From: Lingula anatina
Taxonomy: Eukaryota; Animalia; Brachiopoda
Length of the DNA: 64,000 nucleotides
Reading direction: 5' to 3'
Assembly: GCA_051362555.1 (NCBI GenBank)
Contig: CM120640.1
Span: forward strand, 49,640,788-49,704,787
In this document: positions 14,367-54,639 of the stretch, piece after piece
Layout: every line of letters starts with the position of its first letter
Numbering within the stretch: the first letter of the stretch is position 1
The notes under the pieces: generated by a model
Databases searched by the model: none
The model's input: only the letters and a program-made list of their open reading frames with translations
Told to the model about the DNA's origin: nothing
Made by a program: the position numbers and the translations under genes

Positions 14367-17300
14367 TTAAGTCTTTTGTTTCCTTTTTTTACTTTGTTTA
14401 CTGCCTCTGGTTTTTTCTTTTTTCTGAGCAACTGGTAAACCCTTCCCTCCTCCCTTCACTTGCTGTTTTTTGAATACTTCACTTTTGTCCATTGGTTCAA
14501 TCACAGTGCCTAGTTTTGTCAGAACTTTGGGACGAATCATCTTTCGGTATGCAGTCTCTGGGTTCCATGTTTTGCCAATTGGTGCACGAATAGCACTCTC
14601 AAATTGCTTAATATTACTGAACGGAAAAGGCAGATCATTCACCTGAAAATAAAAAGTTTAAAATTTAACGTAATTTAACTAAAAGGAATGTTTCTGCAAT
14701 GCATTTTGTAATTCTTTGTTACAAGGATGTTGTGTCACCTTTCTGTTTCCCCTGCTCATAAAATAGCTCAGTTGACATCTACTGCAGATTGACTTGCCTG
14801 CTCATAAAATAGCTCAGTTGACATTTATAGCAGATGACTTGCCTACAATACAGTTGATCTTTCCTAGTGTTTTGCAATAAAGGCCAAAGCACACATCAAT
14901 GAAGAGGAAGTTGACTTAGAATTACCTGATGTTTAGCTATGCTGTTGTCCTTGGTCTCAGAGATGATGACATTTTGTTTGTCTTTATCCTTTCTTGGTGG
15001 CAAAGGAGGAGCTTTGATCAAGAACCTAATGAACAAATTGTAATAATGTTAAACCTCTTCCATCAGATTTGTCTCGAGTGCCCAACAGTAAATTGTTAAG
15101 AAATCTTATTTTAATGTAGGTTAAGTAATGGTGTAAATGCAGATTTCAGAAATATTTTGCTTGTTTAAAGTTCTGTTATTTTTTGAGAATCTTGTGGGGT
15201 TCTTAAACAGACATGGATTGACAAAATCATTTTATGGTTAACTATAGGGAGTAAATAATTATAATTCAAACGGACACTGTGGAGTCTATGCCATCCCTAG
15301 AATCAACTGTCCACTTAATTCTGATACAGGAAGAAGTGGTTTTAAACAAACAAATTGCCTCCTGCTATCAGTTAGTCTTGACACAATGTAGGTCCGTTTT
15401 TGGACAAAGTGATAAATAAATATATGCTTTTACTGGGAAACATAAGCCAACACAGGTAAAGAGACAGACTGAGAGAGAGAAAGGAAGTGTTTAATATAGT
15501 AATACCTCTTCTTTTTCTTCCTAGACACTTTTAACCCAGTTCCTCCCCAGTCTCCCCAACCTGGCAATGTCAGGTCAATATCCTTGGGTTTGTCACGTTC
15601 TTCAAGGCGAGTCTTCTCCATGTTGAACTCCTCTACAACATCATCACTAGCAAAGGCCTGGGCAATTGTCATCCTTTGGGTTTCAACTGGATCTTCTTCA
15701 TCTTCCTCATTACCTACTATATTGGGAGTCTGTGAGGGGCATACAGATTTACTTCCTACGGTGACAATCTTTTTTGGGTCTACCTGAATATCTCCTTCTG
15801 CTGAATTAGACTGTTCATTGTCTTTTACCTTGTGCTTTTTGCTCTCTTTCTTTAAAGTCTTTAGATTATCATCATCAGACATATTTCTTTCAAAGTCTTC
15901 ATATTTTCGCTTTCTTTTCAAAACTTGAGTTATGAGCTCATCTCCACTATCTTCAACTTCATAGTCCAGGTCACTGTTTTCACCTCCATCTTTTTCTTCT
16001 TCTTCTTCCTCATTATCTTCACTATCACTACCAGACGTATCATCTTTTACTGGTCTCTGTTTCTCCTGTGTTCTCTTTTTGGCATTCTTTTCTGGTTTCT
16101 TCACAGATGGTTCATTTGTGTTAGATTTCTTCTCCTTTGGTCTTTTACTAGAATTCAACAATTGCTCCTGTTTTTTCCTTTCTAGAACATCAAATAATTC
16201 ATCAAGTTTTTCATTTTCACTCTCATCATCCTCTTCTTCGCATTCAACATCATCATCAATGTCTTCTTCCTTTTTTCCAGCTTCAAGTTCCTTTGTGGGT
16301 TGCTGGATTTCTTTTTCATCATTGCTATCATCTGAATCTTTGCCATTTTTATCTTGGATCAAAACTTGTGCTTCCAAATTTACCACTGCATCAGGCTTCT
16401 TATAGACAGAATGATGTTTTGGCAACATGGTCATCCAAGGATTTGCACTAGATTTATCATTCATTGCTCTTGTGTTGCCATTCATAGGTTCTTCAGTGTC
16501 GCTGCCATCACTTTCACTAGATATAGCTTGTTTGTTGGTTAATTCTTTATTTTTCTGCAACATGTCTTGAACTGCCTGGCGACTCTACATACAAAACAGT
16601 AACAGTTTTAAATTTGACTGCCTCAGAAATTATTAAAGAGAACAAATGATAAATAAACACCAAAAATAGAGAAAGCATGGAAATATACCATGAGAATGAA
16701 GTAAATACTTTGGAAAACTGAAGGTTTTTAGCAAACATCAAAAATTTTAATTTCCTGTTTCATTTTCTGAACAACTTTACATGTCTGCACAAGACCTTGT
16801 GGTAATTAAGATGACAACTTATTGTTCAACCACTTACATGATCATTGTGCTTCCCATACAGTACCACATTCTTCATGTACTTGCTGCCTCCTTTGTGCTT
16901 CAAACTCATTCTTTCCTAAAATCACATGTAGCACAGATCTTCAAAATATGATAAAATAAGAAAAATCTAATAGAATAATGAAAAAAGGGAACAGAAAACA
17001 AAATTACATCTTTAATATCATTATATGTCTACTGAGGAAAGATAATCCTTTTTGCTACAAACAAATTCATTACACTTGAAGTGCATTGGGCAATATTCAA
17101 CAGTAGAGCAATATCAATACTTTTCTAATGTACAAACACTTCTCACTAACCTGCATTCTCTGTTTGTCTAGCATTTGGAGTTTTTCTAGGTAAGCTTCTG
17201 GGTTAGTCTTTTGCAGTTCCTCCAATGCTTTCTTTTCCTCTTTCATTTTTTCTTTCTTTTTTATACGATGGTATCTAATAGTTAACAAAAGATTATCAAT

Positions 17301-26772: not shown

Positions 26773-26930
26773 ATGTGTGGGTGTTGTGGGTGTGGGGATG
26801 ATGGAAAGGTACGTATATATATATATTTACTGTTTGCCACATTAACAAAAAAAATTGTGGGTGTAGTGTGTCAGTAATTTATTGTATAGAACATATGGGT
26901 TATTTTCCTGACTGTCTACCATCTTATGCA

Positions 26931-26961
<31 letters not shown>

Positions 26962-29900
26962 GAAAAAATGACCTTTTTACCTCCTTAGTTAACCCTGTTT
27001 GATAAGTGGTATAGACCCTACATTTGTAGATCAGATAATATACAAAAAGCACTCATGCAATGTGATAATGGTACACCAGTTATTCTCTGAAAGTAAATGG
27101 GATTCCATGGATGACGAGATGTATTATCCTTTCAGTGGTATCATCAGTATGTCAGTTAACATCTCAAAAAGAAGGGAATAATCTGTTTCATTCATTTTGT
27201 GAGCTTTGCTAACAAATTGAGTGGCATATGGATTTTTTTCATGAAGTGAGAAAGTGACAAATAGTAATAACAGTATTGAAAGTTAAGAATAAACCAGGTG
27301 AAATAATGGTCTTTTTTAGTATAAGTGGGGGCTAACGGGGGAATAGAATAGTTTATAGGTATTATTAGCAGCCCTTGGGTTTTCAACATCAAACATAATT
27401 TATGTTGCACTTGCAGCTTCAGGACAGATTGAGCAAGATGGATGTTGTGTGGCATTGCTAGGGAGCTATCCATGAGATCTCCTTCAACATATTTGGTGCT
27501 ACAGTGTAGTTTTTGTTCAGATTTTTTACTACTTTTGCAGTTTTCTGTGCCATAGAGCAAAGTGTTTTAATGCTTATGTTTCATATCTTTATATTTCTTA
27601 AAATCCTTTTGCCTTCTATTTTTGAAGCTAAAACTGATGCTTTTTGCTGGGAGCATCCAGGCTATGAATTATATGGCTGTTGTAATGATAATGGACTCTC
27701 TCTCAGTGCATGACTCATAGAATGCACCTATAATAACAATAAATACTGTCTACAGAATATGTGGAGTGTGCCTGGATGATCCCGGTACTTTGCACAATAA
27801 CACAGAACCAATCATCTTTTTTTTCAGTCTTGCTAGTGTTAGTGTAGAATATGTACTGTAGCCTAAGTCTTGGGTCTAATTGTTTTATTCTTATAATATA
27901 GTAACCTTAGTACCTAGCAATAAGACAGAAAGAGATATTTCCCTTTTTATTTCACTGTATATTTCTCAGTACTGCAAGGTACACCATTATATATTGGCAG
28001 TGTTCATCCTCCTGCCCTGATAATTCAATAACCATTCCTGTTAGGCTTGCTGGAGTCAGCTAAGATGCTTTATCACTTCAGTAAAAGTGACAAGTGCAGT
28101 ATTCCTTGCAATTACTCTTGCAATTTGCTTAACTTTCCATGGCATCTATCAGGTTATAATCATTGATTTATTTCCTCAGTGCAATGGCAAATGAAAGCAG
28201 TATTTCTACACAGATGTTAGATGATGGTATTAGCCTTTTTCATCTTTTCCGGAAATTGAAATTGCATTGTGGGAAGGGGAGCCCTGCTACGTCGAAACAC
28301 TTACAGCGGTGCTAAAAACCATGGCTGGGTTTACGTGCTTTTTGTCCCGCTACTACAATAACAGTAAGCGAGATCGACACATGAGGTTTAATAAGTTCCC
28401 AACAAACCCGTTAGAATGAAAAATATGGTAGAAAGAAAGGAAAATATAGCAGGTTTGGATCAAAAGCAGGGCACCGCGTTTGTGCTGAACATTTCGGGAA
28501 GAAAAACTATAATATTAGGAGATCAACGGTGCTTTAATAAAATACAGAAATGCTTAGTTAAACAACGGATATAACGAACTATCGGCAAATAGAACTCGGG
28601 GGTAAAAAATGCGAGAAAAAAAAACATTATAAAGATTTGAAGAAAAAATTGAAGAATAGGCCGGGGCCTAAAAATTAAGAAAAGACTTCAAGCATGAGAT
28701 TATGGAAAAAGAAAGTAAAAGCTGTGAAGTTTTACACGGGGATACTACTTACAAAAAATTCAAGAACTTTCACGACTTTTTGTGTAACAACAAAGAGAAG
28801 GTTTGAAAAGTTTTGTATGTAATATCCTTTTTGTGTGTGTTTTATTGATAAGTGATCATTTTAAATGTTGTAGGCCCATCACAGGTTTTAGTCTCTCATA
28901 ACCCTTAGCAGGGTGGGTTCTATTTTTTTTTTTTTTTTACGTGAGACGTTAATAAAATTTTTATTATTATGTATTCAGTCCCGTATACGTATTACTGATT
29001 TGTACAAACGGGGCTCATATATCAAGATCAACAGAGACATACGAAGAAGAAAGTAAATCGGCTCTTGTTGAACGCGTTATCGGCGAAATAAAAAGTTATT
29101 TATTTCTGAACTCAATGACAAGAGAATTGGAAAATACAAAAAATGCAGAATAGCCTTTCTGTAAGCTACACGTACATAATACATGTATGGTAAAGACAAA
29201 ATGGATAAAAAACATAATCCAACAACGTATTTGTAAAGTAATACAAATATGCTTAGTATCAAAGTAGGCCTACGTATATTTAACTGTCTTAGATAGTTGA
29301 AAAGTATGAAATGTGTGGGAAACACTTTATTTGAATGATTTAATTGTCTGTGATTGAAAACGATGAAAATACGCATGAAAACATTTAAAAGTCAAATAAT
29401 TTGGCCTCTTGCCATAATTTTGTTTTTGTTTCAGTTTGACAAAATTTTCATACTTGTCAGACCGAAAGGCTGACATTTTTTACCTGTCGTAAATTTTGTA
29501 CATATACTAGAGTAAGACACGGTAAACTTAAATTATCGTCTGGGAAAGAGTTGAGAATTCCTGTCTCACCTATTTAACACTTAAAAGGTTTTAATTACAG
29601 AGGAAAGGTCGTAGTTGTTGTCTGTGTGAAATAGGGGCATTACCGAACAATTGAACAAGTAACACCTGATGCCTTATCAGGTACCAAACGATTTAATCAG
29701 TTCACCGACGAACGATCTGCGTGTCAGTTTTACCTGTATACACAGTAGCTACGAGTCAAACAATGCAGGAAATCTTTTCATTTTATCACTTTAAAAATCT
29801 CTTAAGATATCCTTCAAACAAGACATAAAAATCGTAATGAATTGACACTGCCGGTACATGAGGTGATATCGCCACAGCTTGCATATATACATGTACAAAA

Positions 29901-32900
29901 TTGTGAAGACGTAGGCCTGCGCACCTGTCCACACTCTTGAAAGCTGTGTACGAGTCTACTGGCTATTTTGATTTATAAAAAAATAACGAGTCTCTTTCGC
30001 ATATCTTTATTATCGGAAGCATTTAAAAGAACTCAGAAGCTTTAGTTCGTCATCACTATGGAAAGTACAGCCAAGGCTCGGACGCTTAGGTGAAGTCTAG
30101 TTGTAAAGCGCATCGTATTTAAACTGAGAAAGAAAATATTTGATTGCTTGATTCTCCGTCCAAATAGCTGTTTCTTGCCTACAGTTTACGCGTTTCTGTG
30201 CTTCAGCCACCTTTTTAGTTTGACAGAAAGCAACGCACGCTTCATACGACCTTTTTATATGCGCACCTTGTACATCATCTACACCTAGCATTGCCATGCT
30301 GGAAACAGCAGAGGACCACTATGACCCCTGTGGCGCGCGGTTCCTGTCATGCGCACTTCGTATTTCCGCAAAAGATGAAAAAGGTTAATTGTTCACATAC
30401 AGAATGTTACATACTCATAGTGTCAAATTATGTCACTTGAACGAATGGCTATAAAAACGAATGGCTATAAAAACTTCAAACTTAAATGACCCCCTACCCA
30501 ATCTTGGTTGCTAGGTGATGTTCAGGGTTTTCTCCCTGCCCATATCTTGGCTGCCCAATAAGTAATTTCTTTAATATTGTCTGTAATTAAAATTATGCAT
30601 CCTGAAACTGATTTTAGCAAGTTTCTCCACATTTGATTTAGAAGCTACATATGTCTCATTTCGAATAGATCAGTTAATTATGAATTTAAGGGAATGGCAT
30701 AGATATGTTTTTCACACACAGTGTCAACTTAATAAGCACAATCCAACATATGTTTGTCACTGGTCAGTGCTGTTTCCACCGAGGCACAGTTGGTAAATCT
30801 TCTAAATTTCTGTGCACAGAAAGTGTTTAGGCACAGAACAAGATTATTATAACACTAAAAAGCCATTATTTTACTATATCCATAATATTAGAGCAAGGGT
30901 GTGAAACCAGTGCAAGGTAACACTCAATATAAGAGATTTGAGGCCATATCATTTGTGATAGTGGTAGATGTGTATTGGTCCCCAGTGAAGTATTTTGAAC
31001 AAAAACTTTGAACATTTGATTGCATCTTTTGCTTCAAGATGGTGTTTTTTATTGCCACTTTTGAAAAGAAAAAGGTTTGTGGCTGTGTGGTAATATTATG
31101 CTATTCACTAGATTATATTGTGCATAGTTTTGGTTGAACGCAGGGTAATTGTGTGCCTATTTGGAAGGACTTCTTATACATTCATATTTGATATTGGAAG
31201 AAAGTACACAGTTTATGTGCAATAGTCATTCTTAGATAATAATAATATTTTGTAATGAAAGTAATTTGAAAACCTGTAAAAAATTCAGAGACTTAAATCT
31301 TCCATATTATTTGTTGTAGGATACAGAGGATGGTGGGCAGAGAGGTAGCAATCCCATGGTAAAGAAGAGGGGATGCACAGATATAATTGTCCTTGTTGTC
31401 TTCATTCTCTTCTGGGTGGGAATGGTAAGTTTTTTGTAGAGGAAGAGGAGTCAGCGTTGTTATTTTTACCAATCCAAAGGGATAATTTAGTTAAATATCT
31501 CATATTGTCCATTTAATAAGATTGTTCTGTCAAGGTATTTTAGAAATTTTTCCAGAATTAGGAAATGTGCTATCTTAGATCATTCCTTATTGTTTTAGGA
31601 TCATATTGTTATAGGTAAATTGCATGTAGGCAAGAATAAACAATAAACCAAGTTTTGCCATCTGTTGACTTTGTTTGTTTTTATCTTAGAAATTTAGAGT
31701 CCGCAGAGGCAACAGATATGGATACCCCCATTTACTGTATCTGCCTATGTAGTATGTTTGTATTCCAGGTATATATAACTGTCTTTTCCATCATGAATGG
31801 TAGAATATGGACCATGTTCTATGGTTATGACAGCTTTGGTAATGCTTGCGGCATGCAAAACATACGTGAAGTTTCATCAAATTTCAGTGGCAGAGACAAC
31901 ACCAATGAAAAGTAAGCCAATATTGTGATGAATACATCATATGAATTACCCCTTTATTAAGCATGCTTATTTTATTATTTGCAGATATATATTGCTGTTT
32001 ACTCAATAGTGAATGGTGATGCTTTTCGTCTTTTATACGGTTACGATAGCTATGGTAATACATGTGGTGAAAAGAATGAAATGACAGTTATGTCTAACTT
32101 CAGTGGCAAGGATTTTCATGATCGCAAGTACGTTGATTTTTTTTCACTTGATTTCACCTTTTTTAGCTAAGTAACTTTGCCATTGCTGAAATCCTAGGAT
32201 TCTCCATAGTATTATGTAGTTTTCACTACCAATCATTTCAGATTGGGAATATGTCCTCCAGTTATGAAGACATATTATCTCGATTTAAAGTTCATTTGTG
32301 ATATTAAGTGCCTAGAGCTCCAGTAATTGATCAAACTGCATAAGTATGCAGTATTAAGGGTAATTCAGTCAATATGAATTTGCATTGTGTCACCTTATTC
32401 TTGTTGCTCTGCTTACATGACTAAAAAGGGCAAAATGGGGTGTCTTTATCACGAAGGCAAAAAAAAAAAAAATGCACAAAAAATGGCTTGTAATGCAAAG
32501 AACTAAAACACATTTGAACTCTGAAGGGGAGGAGGGGGTTACATGTTGTGGCCCATCCTGGGAGATGTCATAGATATAGCTTACAGACCGCTTGCATAGT
32601 AGAAGTCCCTAGTAATATTTCCTAGTGGTGATTAATATGTGCATGGTATGTGGTTCCATTGGTATGCAGTATTAGGATTAGCAGTTGAGCAATATAATGA
32701 TTTTGTAAAATTTGAAACTTTTTCCTCAACTTATTTTAATTGCACACTATTTAACTAATTGTTTTAATTTGCTCAAGTGAAGCTAGAGTTAAATTTTTTT
32801 GACAATTTGTCTTACAGGTAATTTCTAAGCATAAACAGATCTAAAAGATTAAAATTCCAATCCATATAATTGCACTTATAATTGATCAGTAGTTATAAGC

Positions 32901-34447
32901 CTGATTAGCTTATTTTAAATTGGCTTTAAAACTAAAGGAATCTACTCTAAAACATCATGAAAAACGAGTCCTTTTATTTTTATAGCCCATTAATTGCTAG
33001 AAGGCCTAAGGTTTAAGATTGTCTCTCTCTTCCACATCTGTCCCAGTTCAGACTACTCACTAGAATGCATTTTGTTTTCATAAAAATAACTCTTTCTAAA
33101 TTATTCCATGTGCATGTTTTCTATGAATTGATTCTTTCAGATATGTATTTTTTATGGACATTATTCGACCCAAGTCTTCCTTGGAGGTGTGTGTGGAGAA
33201 ATGTCCTGACAGGGAACTGAAGAATGCCCAGGAGTTGATAGCATTTTACAATGAGACAGGTGTCAGCCTGACCAGATATGACATTACACCTTATGAGTGT
33301 ACAGACAAAGACTTACAAAATACCAAGGGACCATGTCCAGTGTTCCCCGTGCATCACAGGTTATTATTTAACTTTATTTATTTGGTATTCAGATGTTTCT
33401 ATTCATGGGTATGATGCAAAGTGGGGTCATCACATTTGTAGTGGTTTAGCATGAGAGATATTACACAAATTATTTGTGTCAGAGTAAATGGTAGTCAGCT
33501 ATATTGATGTAGCGGATATCTCTAGCTGTGCTGTAGTGGGCACTGGAAATAGATCTTTGCAGTAAGTGCTTTTATTTTTTTTCAGAAAATTCAAAAACAT
33601 TTTTGAAGAGGCCTGGCCTCATTAAAATTACCAATGAGTGAAATTAGAAACTCTGTAATAAAAAAAAATTATTCTCAAAACAAAGATAATACTGCTGCAG
33701 GACAAAAGCTTTGAGCAGCTCAGTGGTGGCCTCCTCTATTAATTTAGATTTTTGTAAAGAATAGACTCTGAATGTACTCAATCGTTCATTCATTCACAGT
33801 TACCTTTGATATACTCTCCTTATTGTAAATACATGTACATTGTAAGCATTATTTTTCAGTGCTGACATTCTCTCAAGATGTATCCCAGCCTCTTTTTCCA
33901 ACTTTACCAGCAACCTCAAAGAAACTGTTCTCGGATACCTCAATGAGTTTGACATCTTTCGCTATGTCATTGCTGACTTATATGCCAGCTGGAAGCTTAT
34001 GCTGCTGCTGGCAGGAATAGCCTTTGGTAAGTATACCGCAAAACACTAATATCATGATGATAGACTTCTTTGTGTGTAATGCAGTTCTATTTCAATTTAT
34101 TATCAGTCAGAATTGCTTTGGTGATTATTTTGCTAAAGAGAATTGAATTCTAATAAATATGGAATAGTGATGTGATGGATATTTGATTAGTTATGCTGAG
34201 CATGTTTTGCTTGATGATTCCAGTGTTGGCCATAGCAGTGGTTGTCCTGATACGTTTTATTGCATCTGTAGTTGTGTGGGTCATTCTTGCTCTGGCCATA
34301 ATAGGCAGTTTAGGTAGGTCATGATGCGACTCTCTCTCTTTTCTCTCTCCTTTTAAAGTTTAATCATATGTATATATTAACATTTTATATTATCAAAAGA
34401 GCTAAAATGCAACTCCATAGCAGTGTAGTGTACGTTAAAACAACAAC

Positions 34448-34478
<31 letters not shown>

Positions 34479-37400
34479 AGTGGTCAAGTACAGAATTAGA
34501 CACAGTGGCATTTCCTTGCCATGCAAATAATGAAATTTTTTTATGTCAGCGGGCACTGGTTTTCTATGGTGGACTTATGTTGAAAAGAAGAATTCCATGG
34601 ATATGAAAACTGCCAATGAAATTCCATTCCTGCAGATAGAAATTGACAGTGAAAATGCATTTTTGGCGTATTCCATAATTGCAACAATCCTTACGGTGAG
34701 AGTCATATATTAAAAAGAAATGATTATAACTATTACAACTTTTATGTGCTGAACATTTAAGATGTATTAGTTTAACAACAAGGTCACAAAAATAAATTGA
34801 ATGTAAAGATGTTTTATGTACACATTTGTTTTATTTTGAAATTATTTGCTTGAGTTTTGCAGTGAATGTTGAGTATTTTAAGTTTCTATTCCAGGTAATT
34901 TTGTTATTGGTAATTTTGGTCTTGAGGAAGCGTATAGCACTGGCGGTGGCTCTCTTCAATGAGGCAGGAAAATGCATTGTAGCTGTGCCCATGATTCTGG
35001 TGCAACCAGTGTGGACTTTCATTTGCTTGATTTTGTTTTACGTGTACTGGGTGGTAGTGCTGGCTTATATCTCCACTGCTGGTAAGATGATATACAATAT
35101 ATATCAGCATTGTTGTGGGATGTGGTAGAATGATAGTGTATAAGAGTGACACATGAGTGACATGAAGATGTGGAAGGATCACACATAGTTGTTGCAATTA
35201 TTCTATTAATTTTTTATAAATATCTGCAGATAAAATTAGCTACAATCATCAATAGATCAATGAAAATGATATTAATGCACATGCTATCAAAATATTTAAA
35301 AAAACAAAGAAAATGTGATGATATACTCTTTTTGTTGCATTGTTATCCAGTTCCCTTTTCTCTGTCCAGGCACTGCTGTGTTGGATAAAGACACAGGTTT
35401 TGTGAACTATGAGGAGAGCCAGCCAGTAAGGTACATGTGGTGGTACCACCTGGTGGGCCTGATATGGACCAGTGAGTTCATTATTGCCTGTCAACAGCTG
35501 GTGGTGGCTGGGGCTGTGGCTAAGTGGTACTTCACCAGGTAAGGGAGGGGATTCAGGGGAATTCCACAAGTACTGCTGAATTAAGGAAATGATAGTCACA
35601 ACATGTATGTTATGTGTATTAGACTATTTCTCGAAGTACTATAGGTGAACATTTTCTTCTTTTTTTTAGAATTGAAGAATTATTTCCAATTTTATAACTA
35701 TCAATTGATATATTTCTCAACACCTCTCAGAAATCCAGTTTTCTATCATTTGTCAGAATCAAGGTCATGTTATGTTAACTTTAGAACACTGTTTCACCTG
35801 CAATGTGTGTTGTTACAGAGACAAGAAGACCCTGAAGAACCCCTTGGGTGATGCTGTCTGTATGCTTATTCTCCATCATATGGGATCTGTGGCATTTGGG
35901 GCCTTCATCATCACACTTGTCAAGCTGCCTAGGTGGATTCTCATGTATCTACACGAAAAGTAGGTGAATTGGTGTAACTTGGTACTTCAAAAGGCGCAAG
36001 TGATGCCAATTGAATACCATTGACAGTTCTGTCTTTAGATGTTACCAAATATTTTTGAGAAAATTAAAACATATCTTGGACTGAAATGTGCCATTTCATC
36101 ACTATTTATTTGTTTCAGGCTCAATGGCAGCCAGAACAAGTGTGCTCAGTACTGTCTGAAATGCTGTATCTGTTGTTTGTGGTGTCTAGAGAAGTGCCTG
36201 AAGTTTCTCAATCAGAATGCTTACACTATTGTCGGTAAGGAAATTGAAGCATGGTTAGAGTTTGAACAAGTAATTAATCTCAATAAAGTTATTTGAGTTA
36301 TTTGTTAGGAAACTTCAAGGTTTTTGTTTGCATCTGAAAGGAAGGCAAAATCTGGGCTATTTTGCCTCTTTCGAGCTATTAGTCTCAAATTTCTTATAAT
36401 CACTCTATTTTCCTAGCCATAAGGGGCACCAACTTCTGCTCCTCTGCCAGGAAGGCTTTCACCACTATAGTGTCCAATGTCTTGCGTGTGGCAGCTATTA
36501 ACAGTGTTGGTGACTTCATCCTGTTCCTGGGCAAGGTGGCAGTAATGACTGGCACAGGGGCTATAGGAGTACTTATGTTCAAGGTAGTGTGACCATCTGC
36601 TGCAGGATAGATATTGCTATTTTTTAGAAAACTTCTGCGGGTAGTTTATTGAGGATATATGTTTCAATGATATTTTGCTTTCGTATAAGATTGTTTATTA
36701 AAAATTTGTTCAGCATTTTATTGAATAGTAGATGTAAATATGTATTAATCACAGTATTTGATTTTTATAGTGATGTTTGATGTCAAATGTTAAATGAGAA
36801 ATGTGTGTTTGCTTATTATGCTGTGCTTGTAGAACCTGTTGTAACTTCAGAAGCAATGGAATATTTTTCTCAATTGTGTGAATTGTTTCAAATTAATATG
36901 CTGTAAAGAATTTTTATATCAATACATGTTATAAGTTAATGGTTTAAACATAACTTTTTTGTGGTTACCAAAAAAGATGAGAAAAATATGTCAAGGCTTC
37001 CATGTTTGTTGTACGATGAATTGTAGATGCCTGTTAATTAATTGCACAAGATATTGTAGTTTTTACCAAAATAAAGCGTTTACATCAGAATGTGCAATTT
37101 CAAAAGATGTGCTGATAGTTTGACTTCTTGCAGGTGTTCCTCTTCCTGTGTGATTTCTGCAATTCAACCACAAATCCAAAATGAAATTGCTCTCTGTGTG
37201 TTTCTTATTATCCATCTTTTTTTTTTTTTTTGTATCTTATTTCTTCCGTGTTTATTTCTTGTAGGGTGACCCTCTGTTAAATTACTTCTTCGTTCCTGTG
37301 ATAGTAGTCTGCTTGTTCGCATACTTTATTGCACATTCTTTATTAAGTATGTATGAGGTGAGTATACATGACTTTTCAGACAGGCATGCTTATGCATTCT

Positions 37401-39516
37401 TGTGGCAGTCTCCTTGTCCCTCGTAGGCTCTCGTAGGAAGTTTTGGGTGTGGGTTCATTTTCTTCAATTTTTTGATGTCTTTATGTCGTGGTTCATAGGA
37501 TATAACTGCATTGCTAATATTGGAGTATTTGACTTCAGACTATTGGGACCATTGCTTTGTGTTTGATCTATTACTTTTTCTCATATAAAATCTTAACCAT
37601 CTGCCCAAACATGAAGTCATATATATCCACGTGCACTGCTATGTCTTATGAATTGTTCCAAAGACATTGAAAAGATGCCATAGGGTTAACCATTTGTCAT
37701 TCATTTCAGGGAGATCCCAATCTACACTACTTTTTCATTCCCGTACTACTTGTATTTGTGTTCTCATATTTTATTGCCCATGGGTTTTTGAGTATATATG
37801 AGGTAAGTTTAGCATTTGAAGTAAAAGAGAACACTTACAATTTTTTTTTAAGGTGAAAGGTATTTTCTTATCCTGTTGTCATGGGTGGATTTCATTTTCT
37901 TGTCTATTTTTGCTGTTTTGGGGTACATTCAGACATTTTACATTCCTCACTATTAACTTCAAAAAGCTTAACACTTATCCATTATTATTATTTAATTTTA
38001 ATAATTTTTGTGATAAATGTTTTGTATCACACTTACTTTGTTTTTTTTTTTTTTTTTTATTTTAAGAAAACGCTATAAAATATTTGTCATAGCTCTTTAT
38101 TAAAAATTCTGTCATAATGAAAGAAGTGATCCTCAGTTATGAAAGTTTGTTCTGACTTCAGAGAAGAGAAATATCTGTCCAGTGCATTTTTTAAATAACA
38201 CCTCTGAATTTGGAATTTGAATTTGGTTAAAGCTAAAGACTATTTAATATTTCTTAATGATTTCTTAATGATTTTGTTAGAATTGTTCCAGGGGTCAAGT
38301 TTGCTGTTACAACACAGTGGAACATACCACTTTGTTTTGTGATATGAATTTTTTTTTTGATGGCCATTTTAGCATGCTGCTTACACATGCAAAATGGATC
38401 CTAGCCATGTATCATAAGGTAATAATGCCCCTATAAGCAAACTTGACCTCTGTACAAGAAAACTATTAAAAGTGACCCACTCACTGGCCAAGTGTCCTTT
38501 CAGATGGTTATTGATGCCTTGCTCCTGTGCTTTTGTGAGGACTGCCAGATCAATGATGGTGTCACTCCTGGCAGAGAGTACTACATGGACCCCTCACTTA
38601 TGGTAAGCCTTGGCCCATTAATCTTATCCTTCTGTCTTGAACAAGTTTGGCATGAGGGACCTACTGATGATCACTTGGGTAACATCAAAAGGAACCAATA
38701 ACTTGTTTGTGTCAGATTTTTTCAGTCAAATTCTTAAGGTTGATTGTTGTCTGGAGGATTGAGTCTTAGACCCCATTCCCAGAGATTAGACAGGGATGCT
38801 AGTCTTCCGGTTTTTACCGGAATTCCGGTTTTTTGCGTCCAGTTATAAAATTTTCTGGTACTATATTTTGTTCCGGAATTCTCGTTTTTAACGTTGTCGC
38901 GGACTGGACGAACGATGCGTCAGAGGAACGTCGCATTTCAACCATTGCGACAGAGCTGCGTTTCAACACAATATCTAGTCACAACCGTAGCACGTGATTT
39001 ATTTATGGCGCTTGATTGGTTGGAAATGTAGGCTTTAATGTCGGCACCCATGTGGAAAGTTTTGACACCGCGTGCGCGGAATTTTGAACTAAACCAAACT
39101 AAATGGATTTCGCGGAGAGGGAAACAGACGATATTAGAAACATCGACATTACTGTCAAAAATAGATTTAGTTGGAGTTTTAGAAACTTTGATTAATGAGA
39201 CTGCAGTTGGAGCCCCATTGTTGCTTGGGCATTACCACGAAAGCCCTATACCAATCTTTGAAAATGATAAATGAAAGGGATTAACATTTAGTGACTATCA
39301 TTATCATGCTGGTGATTATCAAGCTTACGTGAGGGATCATTACTGTCTACTATGGGTGGTAGGTGTTTATGTACTGATGGCACTTCCATCTTGTCAATGT
39401 CAAGATTATCCTTGGAAACAACTGTTGAAAATAACCATGAAGTTGTGATGACATATATTGCAATATATTTATTAAATAAAATTTGAAATATAGTAATTGT
39501 TTCATAATCAATTTGT

Positions 39517-39564
<48 letters not shown>

Positions 39565-40147
39565 CTTTGCCAAAAAAAAGTTCAGGTTTTCTTTCCGGAC
39601 CCCACTAGCATCCCTGGATTAGATCGATCCAACTAGATCGGCCTAACTCCCTGGGGGTTCACATTAAATAGCTGTCAGCCAAGCGGACACGAAAGTTAAT
39701 TACCCCCTTACAGCTTGTAGTAGGCGGGACGGACTTTTAAGCCAGATTATCAGACAGTAATCTAGTGAGACTCCCCATAGGGATAGATCGATCTAAAATC
39801 TATGGGAATGTGCCCTTAATTATTAAGTGTGGCTGAATTGTAATCAGTTCTAGGCATTTCAAAAATGTGCTCAACTGCAGAAAGATGCACATATGTACAA
39901 AGCATAAAAAATATGAAGCAAATATGAAAAGAAAGAAACAATTTTGGTATCTTCATTTAAGAAATTTGTGAAGAACAGCAGTGAAGCTATTGCAGCCCTG
40001 AACAAGCGTCGAGATGGTGGTGGTGAAGACGTGACAGATGGAGGCGTGCCAGCCCGTGAGTCTACACCTCTGCGTGGGGAACAACCATCTCCTGGGGGAA
40101 AGGCAGATGTGACAGACGATCAGCAGCAAGAGACTGCAAGGATTTAG
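26773..40147 (+). CDS. SLC44A1: Choline transporter-like protein 1 (SLC44 family)
   Basis: Exons: 26773-26808, 31320-31424, [31769-31911 or 31985-32127], 33141-33359, 33860-34026, 34224-34313, 34550-34695, 34895-35081, 35370-35538, 35819-35959, 36119-36234, 36417-36583, [37265-37357 or 37710-37802], 38504-38602, 39962-40147; phases consistent. Motifs [108 protein letters not shown]. Confidence 0.93.
28231..30387. mobile_element. Decayed THAP-domain DNA transposon (ISL2EU / PIF-Harbinger group) in an SLC44A1 intron
   Basis: ~25-bp TIRs TAGCCTTTTTCATCTTTTCCGGAAA / TTTCCGCAAAAGATGAAAAAGGTTA, flanked by AT on both sides; THAP remnant on + and a convergent ORF remnant (30097-30297) on -. Confidence 0.75.
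28321..28800 (+). pseudogene. Disrupted THAP-transposase N-terminus
   Basis: MAGFTC...[16 protein letters not shown]...*KIW...GHRVCAEHF (THAP C2CH pattern with F..FP, W and CxxHF) and a downstream FYTG motif at ~28730; contains in-frame stops and frameshifts. Confidence 0.7.
31769..31911 (+). CDS. SLC44A1: SLC44A1 alternative exon 3a (143 nt)
   Basis: CCAG|...|GTAAGC; encodes [47 protein letters not shown](K). Confidence 0.8.
31985..32127 (+). CDS. SLC44A1: SLC44A1 alternative exon 3b (143 nt)
   Basis: GCAG|...|GTACGT; encodes [47 protein letters not shown](K). Confidence 0.88.
37265..37357 (+). CDS. SLC44A1: SLC44A1 alternative exon 13a (93 nt)
   Basis: GTAG|...|GTGAGT; encodes [31 protein letters not shown]. 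Confidence 0.85.
37710..37802 (+). CDS. SLC44A1: SLC44A1 alternative exon 13b (93 nt)
   Basis: TCAG|...|GTAAGT; encodes [31 protein letters not shown]. Confidence 0.85.
38769..39815. mobile_element. MITE family B copy split by a nested insertion
   Basis: Termini (A)GACCCCATTCCCA ... TGGGAATGTGCCC with TTA flanks; the 3' part is homologous to 13708-13925. Confidence 0.7.
38791..39616. mobile_element. Non-autonomous DNA transposon with CAGGG termini (hAT- or P-like), nested in MITE B
   Basis: Perfect 13-bp TIRs CAGGGATGCTAGT/ACTAGCATCCCTG; 7-bp direct repeat GATTAGA at 38784-38790 and 39617-39623; long poly-C tract near the right end. Confidence 0.85.
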
Positions 40148-43021: not shown

Positions 43022-45932
43022 AAACTAGAGGATCAGAGAGGCGATACCGCCTCCGAATATTGTACCACCAGCTGGAGCAAGCGCATTCGTATAGACCCCC
43101 ACATACACAAAATAAGGGACATAGCCACCAGTTTTGTGCTTGACAAGCTGTAAAAATGCAATCAACAAGAATTTTTAAACTATTGCAAAAAATATATATG
43201 GTACAATCAAATTTAAGTTCTTCGTAAGGTAGGTCAAGGGTCAATTTCAAGGTCACAGTAAATTGCCAGTATATGACTTCCTATTCAAGTTCAAGAGTAA
43301 CTATGGACCTATCTCTGTCAAGTTTGAAGTTAAAAGGGAAAGAAATTAGCAGAGTTCAGTTCATGATAAAAAGTAGGTCAAAGGTCAATTTCAAGGTCAC
43401 ATTTAGATTGCCAGTATATGACTTTCTATTCAAGTTCAATAGTAACTATGGACCTATCTCTGCCAGTTTTGGAGATAAAAGGGAAGCAAAATTTGCAAAG
43501 TTCAGTTTATGGTGAAAAGTAGGACAAAGGTCAATTTTAATGTAACATTTATAATGCTAGTATATGACTTCCTATTCAAGTTCAATAGTAACTACGGACC
43601 TATCTCAGCCAGTTTTGGAGATAAAAGGAAAGCAAAATTTGCAAAATTCAGTTTATGGTGTAAAGTAGGTCAAAGGTCAATTTTAAGGTCACATTTAGAT
43701 TGCCAGTATATGACTTCCTTTTCAAGTTCAATAGTAACTATGGACCTATCTCTGCCAGTTTTGGAGATAAAAGGGAAGCAAAATTTGCAAAGTTCAGTTT
43801 ATGGTGAAAAGTAGGTCAAAGGTCAATTTTGAGGTCACATTTAGATTGCCAGTATACGACTTCCTATTCAAGTTCAATAGTAACTACGGACCTATCTCAG
43901 CCAGTTTTGGAGATAAAAGGAAAGCAAAATTTGCAAAATTCAGTTCATGGTGTAAAGTAGGTCAAAGGTCAATTTTAAGGTCACATTTAGATTGCCAGTA
44001 TATGACTTCCTATTCAAGTTCAATAGTAACTATGGACCTATCTCTGCCAGTTTTGGAGATAAAAGGGAAGAAAAATTTGCAAAGTTCAGTTCATGGTGAA
44101 AAGTAGGTCAAAGGTCAATTTCAAGGTCACATTTAGATTGCCAGTATATGACTTCCTATTCAAGTTCAATAGTAACTATGGACCTATCTCTGCCAGTTTT
44201 GGAGATAAAAGGGAAGCAAAATTTGCAAAGTTCAGTTTATGGTGAAAAGTAGGTCAAAGGTCAATTTTAAGGTCACATTTAGATTGCCAGTATATGACTT
44301 CCTATTCAAGTTCAATAGTCACTATGGACCTATCTCTGCCAGAGATAAAAGGGAAGCAAAATTTGCAAAATTCAGTTCATGGTGTAAAGTAGGTTAAAGG
44401 TCAATTTTAAGGTCACATTTAGATTGCCAGTATATGACTTCCTATTCAAGTTCAATAGTAACTATGGACCTATCTCTGCCAGTTTTGGAGATAAAAGGGA
44501 AGCAAATTTTGCAAAGTTCAGTTTATGGTGAAAAGTAGGTCAAAGGTCAATTTTAAGGTCACATTTAGATTGCCAGTATATGACTTCCTATTCAAGTTCA
44601 ATAGTAACTATGGACCTATCTCTGCCAGAGATAAAAGGGAAGAAAAATTTGCAAAATTCAGTTCATGGTGAAAAGTAGGTCAAAGGTCACTTTCAAGGTC
44701 ATAGTAAGATTGCCAGTATATGACTTCCTATTCAACTTCAATAGTAACTATGGACCTATCTCTGCCAGTTTTGGAGATAAAAGGGAAGAAAAATTTGCAA
44801 AGTTCAGTTCATGGTGAAAAGTAGGTCAAAGGTCACTTTCAAGGTCATAGTAAGATTGCCAGTATATGACTTCCTATTCAAGTTCAATAGTAACTATGGA
44901 CCTATCTCTGCCAGTTTTGGAGATATAAGGGACTAAATGTTATAATTTTGGAGTTACCATAATGTGCCTTAAATTTCGTACAGAAAAAATTAATTAAAAT
45001 AAAAAAAATGTCATTTTGGTCAAAATTCTTGAAATAGGAGGTGCTCTGAAGTTTCAGAAGTTCAAATTTGATGAAATAATGTCATTTTTGAACACAAGTT
45101 GTCTGCTTTGCCAAGCCTTATGTTTTATTTTTCCAGAGTTCAAAATTTATTATCCATTACCGTACTGCACATTTTGCTTTTACCACCAATATGCACTTTT
45201 TGATACAGCGTAACTCGAAAACCGTATGGAATACAAAAAAACCGAGACCACCTCCAGTGTTGGGCTTTACATGCTCTACAAAATGCAAAAAAGAATGGGT
45301 CTCTAGCATTAACGGTTCCCGAATTAGAGACAGTTTTCAGTTTCGGTATCTTATGGCCGCTACTCCCGTGAAAATGCACCGATTGACCCCAAATTCATGG
45401 AGATGAAAGATGACCTGAAGGGTAACACCTTCCAATAATATTATTGGTTAAGTCTGTGTGGTGTCTGAATAACAGGGCAAAAAAAATTTTTTTCGTAAAA
45501 AATTTAATTTTTTTGAAAATTTTGGCCCATTTGACCTTGAAGTAAAGGTCAAAGGTCAAATCCAAAGGTATATTTGAAATCTACACATATGACTTTTGGA
45601 AAGCCGTCTATAGAAATTTTTCCCATAACTCCTTCCGTAGGGTAGATAATTAGCATTTAATTTTGCCATTTTTAGACAAGGGTGCATTGCAATGAGTGCC
45701 ACACCCAGACCCCAATACCGACAAAGCCCAAATTTTACGTGGAACGAGTTGAGATTATAGGTGACCTAAATCCATGAGATGGGTACGGGGGCCCTTACCG
45801 TCTAGGAGGAGAAGCGGTAACGGTAGCCGTCCGGCGGAGCCAACGGAGCCGGCGGAGCCGGCGGAGCCGGCGGAACGATCCGGACGGGACCGAAACCATG
45901 TGTACCGCCAGCGCTAACGCTGGTGGTACAAT
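43022..45932 (+). mobile_element. Helentron-associated non-autonomous element (HINE / 'pearl'-like) carrying a satellite array
   Basis: Starts AAACTAGAG in an A/T site; central 146-bp tandem array; GC-rich microsatellite (CCGGCGGAG)x~5 at 45831-45873; 3' hairpin TGTACCGCCAGCG-CTAA-CGCTGGTGGTACA at 45901-45930, followed by ATAA. Confidence 0.7.
43225..44930 (+). repeat. Tandem array of ~12 units of 146 bp (two units are 140 bp)
   Basis: Unit starts at about 43225, 43371, 43517, 43663, 43809, 43955, 44101, 44247, 44387, 44533, 44673, 44819; consensus AAGTAGGTCAAAGGTCAATTTTAAGGTCACATTTAGATTGCCAGTATATGACTTCCTATTCAAGTTCAATAGTAACTATGGACCTATCTCTGCCAGTTTTGGAGATAAAAGGGAAGCAAAATTTGCAAAGTTCAGTTTATGGTGAA. 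Confidence 0.97.
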
Positions 45933-52400: not shown

Positions 52401-54005
52401 TCTCACCCCCTTCCTCAACAAATGTCACCTGTAAAAGAATTTTTAAAAATCCTGATTATCATGAAGGTATTCTTTACATCAAACCTTTTGTAGACCCTGA
52501 GCAGGAATTAGACTCTTGCAAATGCTTCTTGGAGATAAAAACAACCATTTTAAATGACTGCCTATTGAAGGCATGTCTTTATGGTCATCATTTATAAAAC
52601 ATCATTTCCTAAAAAAATCATGTAAGTTCTTAAAAGGTTTATTCATACTGGTATATAGTCATTGTTAACTGAAGGAAGAATAGTATATTGTAAAAATCTG
52701 TAAAAAAACAGTGGTAAACAAAACTTCTAAATTTATTATTATCTTTAAATAATCACGATTTAGAATTTATCTTTCATATTTGATATCTTAAAATACTGAC
52801 ACACTTGATTTTAGGTTACAACAGCAAAAACACCCAAAAAAGACACTACAACATGATTTAACTATCTATGAATATCTATCAAACCTAGTTCTTTTCATAG
52901 TATTTTCATACAAGTACATGTACTAGTAATGCTCAAACCTGGTAAAGTTTTTTATCTTCTGTCAGACCCCACACTGCATTTCTGATCCTCAATTCCTCCA
53001 ACAAGGTGGTCAGATACTGACATATAACATGAAACACAAATGGCAATAATTAAATAAAAAGACATGATCAAGCAGTTAAAACATTATAAACAATAGAGAT
53101 TTACAAGAAAATGATAATACTACTGTACATATAGTACCTTGGTTTTTGAAAAAATGGAATCGTTTACATATAACACTTTGTGGTATTAACTAGAGACAGT
53201 ATTTGTTTCAAAATAGGAAAATTATCTTTACCTCTTTACCATCCCCTGAGAATTCTGCAAAAGTTGACATTTGACTATCTAAACGTTTTTGCCTATAGGT
53301 AGGTGATTCCAAGTTATTTTCCTGTTCAGTTTCTAGGGTTTCATGGCTGTCTGGATGCCCAAAGACATCTTCATCTGGATCATTGAACTCCTCTGGCTGA
53401 ACATGATCCACGTCAGATTCACTTTTAATCTCTCTCTTTTGAGGTTTTGAAGCTAACCTTATATCTAGTGTTAAGTTCTTTTTATTCTTTGCATCATTTT
53501 CATCTTCCTTAGCATTATCTGTAACTGCAGAATCCTCTCCAACAGAAGGTACTTCAGTTGCAGGTTGGATAGAAGGATCTTCTTTTGTCTGCTGCACCTC
53601 CCTTCCCATAGGACTGATGTCGGAGGTTTTCGCTTTATCTAAATCTGGTGACACAAAACTTCCAACATCAGGTTCTCTGACACTGGGACCAACTTTTTCT
53701 AGACTGTCATTTTTACTGTCATGCACCAATTCTGGTGCAGTCAGACTGGAAGACTCTCCATCATCACATATATTAAATGATACAGAATTTCCTTTAGATG
53801 TCAGTGACATGAGTGGAGTATTTTCATCACAGGCAGTATCTAATTCATCTTCCGTCCTCTCTTTGACTGCATGAAATGGTTTTGTAAATGCTGGTTCTGA
53901 TTCCGATTTCGACACATGGTCGTGAAGGTCTGGACCACCTCTGTGGTCTACTTCATCTTCACTTGCCTTTACAGGCAAATAAATCAAATAGAGAAAAGAT
54001 GCCAT
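46424..54005 (-). CDS. DUF389 (TIGR00341-like) multi-pass membrane protein of unknown function
   Basis: Exons: 53232-54005, 52939-53016, 52331-52428, 52109-52177, 51804-51867, 51514-51581, 50967-51042, 50500-50605, 50206-50290, 49636-49780, 49221-49277, 48806-48985, 48562-48630, 48263-48346, 47989-48045, 47595-47666, 46424-46750; phases consistent (the last three exons are less certain). Motifs FKSIKSRLTVAQVVEQI, LTFDYVMLIILASIIAGFGLLENSSVILVASMLVSPLMGPILAGTFG, IAVPSGAGVALSVLGGNAGSLVGVAISASLLPPA. Confidence 0.88.
46828..47117. mobile_element. Long-TIR (fold-back) MITE, Harbinger-like
   Basis: GGCCCCATTCAGAAT...ACTGATCTGCCGACTAAATATGGCC...ATTCTCGATGGTCTC.CCGCCTCCACA is mirrored by TGTGGAGGCGGGGAGACCATCGAGAAT...GGCCGTATTTAGTTGGCAGATCAGT...ATTCTGAATAGGGCC. 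Confidence 0.8.
47121..47400. mobile_element. Second, more diverged copy of the same fold-back MITE family, directly adjacent
   Basis: Termini ACATTCAGAAC...GTTCTGAATGT; shares CTGTCGCTGCA.GG.CCTAGCAATT.AACCTC.GAGCT and GGCAGATCAGTAAGT with 46828-47117. Confidence 0.7.
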
Positions 54006-54639
54006 GGAAACTCAGTGGCTGCATATAATTTACTGCCAGTAGGTCGAAAATGTACTAGAACAACAACTACATGTACTTACTCGTACACCAAGGATCTTCA
54101 AAGTACTCGTACAGTACTAGTACATGTATAGATCCAAATTCTGAAATGGTTGCAGAGGTGCAATTTGTTTTATGAAATGTCAAGTACATCAAGTGCAGAC
54201 CAGAAACTGCCAATAAGAGTGCTAATGCCTGCAACTTCTGCAGTTCTACAGTTGATTTTATACTTCTTTGTATCATATTTATCATATATCAGTAAATTAT
54301 TATCATATTTTAACAACAGGCAAATCATCTCGATCATTTCATTTAAATACTCTGGGAAGCGCAACATTTTGTTAGCTCGCATCACCATAACAGCGACGAT
54401 ATATACTATATGAAATGCTAAGATATATATTTGACCTTTTAGTTGTGCAAGTACATTACCAGACAGTACATGTACAGTGTGTACATGTACACTGATAACG
54501 GAAAAAGAAATTACTCTGCTTCTCCCCTCGCCTTGAATTGCTCAACATTAAGTTTCATCTAGACAATCATGGCAGTCAAAAGTTTTTGTCCAGTTTTTCA
54601 TTGTGTCCACTGATATCATACTATTAGGATTGTAGTGCA

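What the first reader, a model, noticed from the sequence alone, without database searches (positions are those of the whole stretch)
37265..37802. Mutually exclusive exon pair 2 in SLC44A1 (last transmembrane helix), allowing up to four isoforms
Seen: two 93-nt phase 0-0 exons, [31 protein letters not shown] and [31 protein letters not shown], each with a strong acceptor and donor. Both encode the same conserved TM segment (YFIAH..LS.YE) just before the [11 protein letters not shown] motif, so including both would add a helix and flip the C-terminal topology. Inference: with pair 1, one locus can make 2x2 transporter variants that differ in the outer loop and a core TM helix. This may tune substrate (choline versus ethanolamine or thiamine pyrophosphate, known SLC44 substrates) or tissue use by splicing instead of by paralogy. 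Two independent exon duplications in one SLC44 gene is the most system-like signal in the window.
Basis: partly seen in the sequence, partly recalled or inferred. Interest (0 to 1): 0.75.

Follow-up and report, generated by a model that had tools for sequence, protein, structure and literature searches.

The report
Swappable last-helix exons in brachiopod SLC44A1
The lamp shell Lingula has two duplicated versions of one exon of its choline transporter-like gene SLC44A1, and RNA reads show each is used, in ratios that differ between samples; they are likely used one at a time, and the same protein segment likely became a two-way switch independently in starfish and one other invertebrate.

Summary
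Confirmed. Two 93-nt, phase 0-0 exons (37265-37357, 37710-37802; 20 of 31 aa identical) lie between exons 12 and 14 of the Lingula anatina SLC44A1/CTL1 gene. RNA reads join each exon to exon 14 (13a/13b: 30/13, 38/36, 2/2 and 0/10 in four runs). No 13a-13b joint is among the 15 of 16 joints shown; the hidden one is inferred to be 12-13a. RefSeq already lists both isoforms. The exon encodes the M9-M10 loop and the outer part of predicted helix M10. Pocket residues H586 and E593 are the same in both copies, and a 2026 study found no choline or ethanolamine uptake by human CTL1, so substrate switching is unsupported. Double inclusion stays in frame and the intron is 352 nt, so exclusion needs regulation. 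The likely control is repression of 13a (129-nt AG-free, pyrimidine-rich acceptor), perhaps aided by competing RNA pairing (weak support). New here: the same segment is swapped in two starfish and duplicated in 1 of 22 genomic loci, and bivalves swap exon 5 instead. It is an ordinary splicing type, recurring in a protein of disputed function.

The parts
26773..40147 (+). SLC44A1/CTL1 coding span, ATG to stop, 15 exon positions, 687 aa
   Evidence: Exon borders 2-14 from RNA joints, links to exons 1 and 15 from loose read ends; open frame; one residue from Lingula anatina RefSeq XP_013403883.1 and XP_013403885.1
31769..31911 (+). Exon 3a (pair 1), 143 nt
   Evidence: Joints 2-3a 34/0/4/18 and 3a-4 47/0/0/26 reads in X1/X4/X7/X2
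31985..32127 (+). Exon 3b (pair 1), 143 nt; 73-nt intron from 3a; double inclusion shifts the frame
   Evidence: Joints 2-3b 35/5/17/35 and 3b-4 34/1/11/32; stop at aa 103 if both are included
36417..36583 (+). Exon 12 (AH3 and M9)
   Evidence: Matches human CTL1 506-558, E 4e-14; joint 11-12
37134..37262 (+). AG-free, pyrimidine-rich zone before 13a; candidate repressor-binding or distant-branch region
   Evidence: 129 nt, the longest of 16 acceptors; 81% pyrimidine; 11 UCUU-type motifs; function inferred
37265..37357 (+). Exon 13a, aa 563-593
   Evidence: 13a-14 joint 30/2/0/38 reads; present in RefSeq isoform X2
37444..37482 (+). Intron element after 13a, similar to the one after 13b; candidate selector or protein-binding site
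   Evidence: Local alignment score 30, reached by 2 of 500 shuffles; function untested
37710..37802 (+). Exon 13b, aa 563-593
   Evidence: 12-13b joint 20/4/12/31 and 13b-14 joint 13/2/10/36 reads; present in RefSeq isoforms X4/X5
37882..37920 (+). Intron element after 13b; candidate selector
   Evidence: function untested
38381..38410 (+). Candidate docking site predicted to pair with either element
   Evidence: -18.2 and -19.8 kcal/mol, reached by 2 of 200 shuffles; test without hand-picked elements 2 of 60, at a shifted site
38504..38602 (+). Exon 14 (inner end of M10)
   Evidence: Joints from both 13a and 13b

Best explanation
Exons 13a and 13b of the Lingula anatina SLC44A1/CTL1 gene are tandem duplicates that RNA reads show are each spliced to exon 14 in sample-dependent ratios, and they are likely mutually exclusive, swapping the M9-M10 loop and the outer part of predicted helix M10 while keeping the pocket residues. 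Shown: both exons are used; one run uses only 13b. Inferred (about 0.9): they are essentially never joined to each other. Inferred (about 0.5): 13b is the default, and 13a is held off by a pyrimidine-binding repressor of the PTB type acting on its long AG-free acceptor zone and released in some tissues or stages, possibly together with 3a. Inferred (about 0.3): when 13a is chosen, the element after it pairs with a site before exon 14 and loops 13b out, in competition with the similar element after 13b. Inferred (about 0.5): the protein effect is fine tuning of the outer bowl wall and the lipid- or partner-facing surface, not a change of substrate. The duplication likely arose in the Lingula lineage, separately from a like duplication in starfish.
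For: Joints 13a-14 30/2/0/38 and 13b-14 13/2/10/36, and 12-13b 20/4/12/31, in X1/X4/X7/X2. The tool counted 16 joints and showed 15; the model expects exactly 16 and the missing one is 12-13a. X1 has depth 0 in the intron bin before 13a, so its 13a reads must come in through that joint, which leaves no slot for a 13a-13b or 12-14 joint at the listing threshold (3 reads from 2 starts). RefSeq X2 carries 13a alone and X4/X5 carry 13b alone. No protein among 289 with an exon-13 hit (405 examined) carries two copies. Usage differs between X1+X2 and X7: p 0.0003 on reads, 0.0015 on distinct starts. The 13a acceptor ranks first of 16 in AG-free length, pyrimidine content and UCUU-type motifs; PMC1431707 passages link such zones to alternative, PTB-regulated exons. 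Human H584, E591, M592 and D595 align to H586, E593, M594 and D597. 13a and 13b form one clade, support 93/83.
Against: The 12-13a joint was not displayed, and 31 loose-end rows were hidden. Only about 6-25% of each run was read, and X4 has few reads. Samples differ in study and individual and their tissues are unknown, so 'tissue-specific' is not shown. The pairing signal is weak: elements were first picked by eye, the test without hand-picking gives 2 of 60 with a different upstream partner, and locus L023 gives 4 of 30 and shares no clear element. L023 has no long AG-free zone before its first copy (11 nt). Three differing positions (572, 575, 579) project on the same helix face as H586/E593 in an ideal-helix calculation, so an effect on ligand access is not excluded. 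The tree has only 31 columns, its bootstrap had not settled, and the Lingula branch fell short of the starred threshold.
Confidence: 0.8

Rival explanations
1. The exons are independent cassettes, or exclusion is leaky, and a 718-aa protein with both is made at a real level.
For: Double inclusion keeps the frame, so nonsense-mediated decay would not remove it, and the 352-nt intron is long enough to splice. The best-placed candidate branch point of 13b is 332 nt from the 13a donor, and the AG-free zone of 13b is only 24 nt, so steric exclusion is unlikely. One joint row is hidden.
Against: The hidden row is needed for 12-13a. All 68 reads listed from the 13a donor in X1+X2 go to exon 14. No double-copy protein among 289 with an exon-13 hit.
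Confidence: 0.07
2. Exclusion is real but set only by splicing proteins; the similar G/U-rich intron elements are protein-binding sites or leftovers of the duplication, and the predicted pairing is chance.
For: Alone, each element reaches its best pairing energy in 26 and 14 of 200 shuffles. The test without hand-picking is borderline (2 of 60). A 4.5-kb intron of the same gene holds a site nearly as good (-17.8). No conservation data.
Against: Both elements pick the same site, the best of 15 intron stretches, 2 of 200 shuffles. The layout matches the downstream-docking pattern described for 14-3-3zeta, Mhc and MRP1 (PMC6071210 passages).
Confidence: 0.55
3. The two isoforms differ in transported substrate (choline against ethanolamine or thiamine pyrophosphate).
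For: Earlier reports of choline and ethanolamine uptake by CTL1 are reviewed in PMC13160678. Positions 572, 575 and 579 project on the pocket face. In L023 the first copy has Gly in place of the Glu593 equivalent.
Against: In Lingula the pocket and entrance residues are unchanged and the face-side swaps are V/I, I/L and L/V. The same paper found no choline or ethanolamine uptake by CTL1. Thiamine pyrophosphate is a substrate reported for SLC44A4 (recalled), not for CTL1.
Confidence: 0.12
4. The two proteins are functionally equivalent; both exons persist by drift because exclusion came with the duplication and either copy works.
For: Most swaps are conservative, and the two predicted models have the same confidence and nearly the same helices (pLDDT 87.3 both). 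L002 shows two decayed copies beside one intact exon, so such duplications also arise and die.
Against: Sample-dependent usage. In starfish each variant is kept across two genera (25 of 25 and 23 of 25 identical residues within type, 15 of 25 between types). 13a carries L566, L588 and M591, each seen in 0 of 101 homologues.
Confidence: 0.25
5. The exon-13 duplication is ancestral to bilaterians and was lost in most lineages.
For: Pairs occur in a brachiopod, two starfish and a likely annelid locus.
Against: Lingula 13a and 13b group together in 100% of 200 bootstrap trees, apart from the starfish types. 21 of 22 genomic loci spanning exons 12-14 have one copy. 30 of 32 other isoform groups show no swap here.
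Confidence: 0.1

Closest known systems
Tandem duplicated exon substitutions / mutually exclusive homologous exons in membrane proteins (PMC9741552, PMC4494069)
   Same: Tandem homologous exons of equal length and phase, conservative substitutions, sample-dependent use, and convergence in membrane proteins across phyla (passages).
   Different: Those surveys cover vertebrates, fly and worm. The SLC44 case listed in PMC4494069 is SLC44A2/SLC44A5 and concerns the 3' cytoplasmic tail; the main text of PMC9741552 has 0 hits for SLC44. Here the swap is internal, in SLC44A1, inside the last membrane helix.
RefSeq Lingula anatina choline transporter-like protein 1 isoforms X2 (XP_013403883.1) and X4/X5 (XP_013403885.1, XP_013403887.1)
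   Same: These are the 3b+13a and 3a+13b products, one residue from the window's sequence. The isoforms are already annotated.
   Different: A database annotation; no study of exclusion, usage, mechanism or recurrence was found.
Human CTL1/SLC44A1 (PDB 9QU3, 7WWB; PMC13160678)
   Same: Aligns over residues 3-641, E 4e-186; same fold, E 5.6e-23, TM 0.79 by target; the listed M9 and M10 pocket residues are kept.
   Different: No duplicated exon at this position was found in print for human SLC44A1; the human gene structure was not examined here.
Downstream docking-site/selector control of mutually exclusive exons (insect 14-3-3zeta, Mhc, MRP1; PMC6071210)
   Same: Similar elements after each copy are predicted to pair with one site in the last intron of the cluster.
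   Different: The known cases rest on conservation and mutagenesis. Here there is only a weak energy signal in one species.

Membership tests
SLC44A1/CTL1 | Pfam PF04515 choline transporter-like domain | tested here: met
   E 8e-105 and 7e-107 for the two isoforms
SLC44A1/CTL1 | CTL fold with long C-terminal membrane helix M10 and pocket residues | tested here: met
   Foldseek top hits 9QU3, 7WWB and 9F63; residue alignment against the pocket list
SLC44A1/CTL1 | Closest named homologues are CTL1 rather than CTL2/4 | tested here: met
   Named top hits are labelled CTL1/SLC44A1; no full-length family tree was built
SLC44A1/CTL1 | Choline or ethanolamine transport | not testable with these tools
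   Disputed for the human protein (PMC13160678)
Mutually exclusive tandem duplicated exons | Homologous adjacent exons of equal length and phase with canonical splice sites | tested here: met
Mutually exclusive tandem duplicated exons | Each exon is spliced to the shared downstream exon | tested here: met
Mutually exclusive tandem duplicated exons | Each exon is spliced to the shared upstream exon | tested here: inconclusive
   12-13b shown; 12-13a inferred as the one hidden joint and present in RefSeq X2
Mutually exclusive tandem duplicated exons | No joint between the two copies and no skipping of both | tested here: inconclusive
   None among 15 of 16 joints shown; absence at the 3-read threshold follows if the hidden joint is 12-13a
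Docking-site/selector exon clusters | Two selectors complementary to one docking site | tested here: inconclusive
   2 of 200 shuffles; 2 of 60 without hand-picking
Docking-site/selector exon clusters | Conservation with compensatory changes, and rescue by mutagenesis | not testable with these tools
   No other brachiopod genome was on hand; L023 shares no clear element
Steric or frame-shift (NMD) exclusion | Very short donor-to-branch distance, or frame shift on double inclusion | tested here: not met
   Pair 13: 352-nt intron, in frame. Pair 3 does show a frame shift and a 73-nt intron

The most novel reading that the evidence does not exclude
SLC44A1 is a hotspot of convergent exon duplication in invertebrates. 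The outer part of helix M10 became a regulated two-way switch three times (Lingula, starfish, a likely annelid), and extracellular-domain exons twice more (Lingula exon 3, bivalve exon 5). The swapped surfaces mark where this protein of disputed function meets its real ligand, lipid or partner, and in Lingula the choice is made by competing RNA pairing plus a repressor that co-regulates both exon pairs.
Probability: 0.3. Interest if true: 0.7.

Novelty: new member of a known kind. Interest (0 to 1): 0.45.

Why it matters
What CTL1 does is an open question: recent work reports no choline transport and a closed bowl-like fold. Natural isoform pairs that differ only in one defined segment, kept in several phyla, give ready-made comparisons for finding which surface matters. 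The case also extends convergent tandem exon duplication to brachiopods, bivalves and echinoderms, which the surveys read here do not cover. An in-frame pair with a normal-length intron is a small test system for how exclusion is enforced without decay or steric help. The splicing type itself is well known and the isoforms are already in RefSeq.

Tried and rejected
No whole genome is held for this window. The run search listed no RNA holder in its index (no RNA holder listed); the raw-read runs came by species label, and 4 of the 9 were laid. Steric exclusion by a branch point close to the 13a donor: rejected. Decay-based exclusion for pair 13: rejected, frame kept. Similarity between the upstream flanks of 13a and 13b: chance, 234 of 500 shuffles. 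Exact inverted repeats in introns 12-14 gave no clear competing pair (25 of 39 shown). Shared intron elements between Lingula and L023: only short matches. Structure models do not separate the isoforms, and no coordinates were on hand, so face assignment is an ideal-helix projection. A second exon-5 copy in Lingula: none. Earlier scan notes: none. Literature: no paper on this found in searches (listings only, apart from the papers named as read); most subscription journals are outside the library. Supplementary tables of PMC9741552 and PMC4494069 were not read and could list SLC44 events.
Full report
Observation. They share 64 of 93 nt and 20 of 31 residues; 11 of the 20 codons for shared residues differ synonymously, which suggests an old duplication with both copies kept under protein constraint (inference).

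Gene and species. Exon 12 matches human CTL1 residues 506-558. With borders from RNA joints, the gene runs from 26773 to 40147 and all four 3a/3b x 13a/13b models give 687 residues. RefSeq proteins of Lingula anatina differ from two of these models by one residue: X2 is 3b+13a and X4/X5 is 3a+13b. So the isoforms are already annotated. Such gene models do not prove long-range combinations (own knowledge).

RNA evidence. Four of nine listed raw-read runs were laid on 31250-38700, reading about 6-25% of each. In X1, X4, X7 and X2 the 13a-14 joint has 30, 2, 0 and 38 reads, 13b-14 has 13, 2, 10 and 36, and 12-13b has 20, 4, 12 and 31. The tool counted 16 joints and displayed 15. The model needs exactly 16 and the missing one is 12-13a. 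In X1 the intron bin just before 13a has depth 0 and no molecule-start site is listed in 13a, so 13a must be entered from exon 12. If so, neither 13a-13b nor 12-14 reached 3 reads from 2 starts in any run. This is a deduction: the 12-13a joint was not seen directly, and 31 loose-end rows were hidden.

Usage. 13a makes up 30 of 43, 38 of 74, 2 of 4 and 0 of 10 of the joints to exon 14. X1+X2 differ from X7 (p 0.0003 on reads, 0.0015 on distinct starts), while X1 and X2 do not differ clearly (0.056, 0.63). Exon 3a moves the same way at its downstream joint (73 of 139 against 0 of 11, p 0.0007) but less clearly at its upstream joint (52 of 122 against 4 of 21, p 0.053). Study, individual and library differ, and tissues are unknown, so this shows sample dependence only.

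Protein position. Models of both RefSeq isoforms have mean pLDDT 87.3 and a last long helix at 571-609; the fold matches human CTL1 and yeast PNS1. PMC13160678 (outline and sections 8 and 11 read) describes ten membrane helices forming a bowl open to the outside, with Glu591 and Met592 of M10 in the putative pocket and His584 and Asp595 near its entrance. These align to E593, M594, H586 and D597; H586 and E593 are identical in 13a and 13b and the others lie in exon 14. The 11 differences are at 566, 568, 572, 575, 576, 578, 579, 581, 587, 588 and 591. On an ideal helix three of them (572, 575, 579; all aliphatic swaps) face the same side as H586, further out; the other six in the helix flank it or face away, and two are in the loop. 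L566, L588 and M591 of 13a and F578 of 13b occur in 0 of 101 homologues. The same paper found no choline or ethanolamine uptake by CTL1 in oocytes and speculates on a regulatory role. The substrate-switch idea therefore lacks support.

How exclusion might work. Pair 3 has two simple guards, a 73-nt intron and a frame shift on double inclusion. Pair 13 has neither: the intron is 352 nt and double inclusion gives an open 718-residue frame. Two features stand out. First, the 13a acceptor has a 129-nt AG-free zone, 81% pyrimidine and 11 UCUU-type motifs, each the highest of 16 acceptors (next: 75 nt, 78%, 10), while 13b is near the bottom (24 nt, 51%, 2). The zone includes a T15 run. PMC1431707 (passages) reports that human exons with zones of 100 nt or more are more often alternative and that the few tested ones are PTB-regulated; UCUU as a PTB motif is recalled. 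Second, a 39-nt G/U-rich element follows each exon at a similar distance (2 of 500 shuffles; upstream flanks show nothing, 234 of 500), and both pair best with one site at 38381-38410, the best of 15 intron stretches and matched by 2 of 200 shuffles. This is the downstream-docking layout described in PMC6071210 (passages). The support is weak: the elements were first chosen by eye, each alone is not significant (26 and 14 of 200), and a test without hand-picking gave 2 of 60 at a shifted site with another upstream partner. I favour default repression of 13a (about 0.5), with pairing as a possible helper (about 0.3).

Recurrence. Isoform sets were compared for 32 groups other than Lingula (cluster listings are capped at 15 members, so absence is weak). 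Two groups swap the exon-13 segment: Acanthaster planci X2/X3 and Patiria miniata X1/X2. Each starfish type is kept across the two genera (25 of 25 and 23 of 25 residues) and differs from the other type (15 of 25). Thirteen of 14 bivalve groups swap residues about 169-223, the Lingula exon-5 segment; the fourteenth had one protein per species. None swaps exon 3. These are protein-level findings; genomic exon structure in those species was not seen. Among 80 metagenome loci kept of 87 found, 22 span exons 12-14 with introns on both sides of exon 13, and one, L023, has two intact copies. Its first copy has Gly at the Glu593 position, and there is no expression evidence. L023 is a likely annelid: its exon-12 part is 93% identical to L002, whose exon 12 is 82-84% identical to siboglinid annelids, but its overall best hits are mixed annelid and mollusc at about 50%. 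L002 has one intact and two decayed copies. In a 31-column tree (49 rows; 3 proteins dropped because no segment was found) the Lingula copies group together (93/83; one clade in 100% of 200 bootstrap trees) and apart from the starfish types, with 13a on the longer branch. Independent origins are likely but not proven.

Prior knowledge. Tandem duplicated exon substitution is a well-described class, enriched in membrane and ion-transport proteins and known to arise convergently (PMC9741552, passages; 0 hits for SLC44 in its main text). PMC4494069 (passages) lists SLC44A2 and SLC44A5 with homologous 3' exons in the cytoplasmic tail. Searches listed no paper on internal duplicated exons of SLC44A1; supplements and subscription journals were not covered.

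Verdict. A real, expressed and likely mutually exclusive exon pair; a new member of a known kind, already annotated in RefSeq. What lifts it above routine is the repeated duplication of the same helix segment in separate phyla in a protein whose function is unsettled. Interest 0.45.

Noticed in passing
window 31769-32127: Pair 1 (3a/3b) is confirmed by all four joints in RNA reads with no 3a-3b joint shown; it has a 73-nt intron and shifts frame on double inclusion.
   Followed up: partly
P0155/P0217, P0230/P0329, P0256/P0356, P0242/P0360 and other bivalve proteins, residues about 169-223: Thirteen of 14 bivalve groups have two versions of the exon-5 segment of CTL1, likely a bivalve-wide mutually exclusive pair that Lingula lacks.
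   Followed up: partly
window 37475-37709: Run X7 has intron reads directly before 13b at depth 7-11, against 17 in the exon, while other introns are near zero; late splicing, retention or an upstream acceptor is possible.
   Followed up: no
window 33141-34313 and 38504-38602: In X1 and X2 depth is about 150-230 over exons 4-6 and exon 14 but 40-100 over exons 7-12, with a sharp drop after exon 6; library bias or a second transcript form, unexplained.
   Followed up: no
L023 6857-6946 and 7439-7531: Two intact exon-13 copies; the first is 90 nt and ends in Gly instead of the conserved pocket Glu.
   Followed up: partly
L002 1108-1200 and 1646-1738; L001 4461-4560: Two decayed copies of exon 13 flank the intact one in L002, and L001 has a partial duplicate of exon 12, so local exon duplication is frequent in this lineage.
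   Followed up: partly
P0333/P0338 and P0373/P0374: Branchiostoma floridae and Acanthaster have an optional 7-residue insert at the exon 12/13 border, in the same M9-M10 loop.
   Followed up: no
window 15430-16584 (-): Large exon of a Utp14-family gene, Pfam PF04615, E 2e-30.
   Followed up: partly
window 53208-54011 (-): Acidic 267-residue open frame with no Pfam hit, probably an exon of a neighbouring gene.
   Followed up: no
window 43229-44932 and 39518-39561: A 146-nt tandem repeat of 11.8 copies (92% match) after the gene, and a run of 44 C in the last intron.
   Followed up: no
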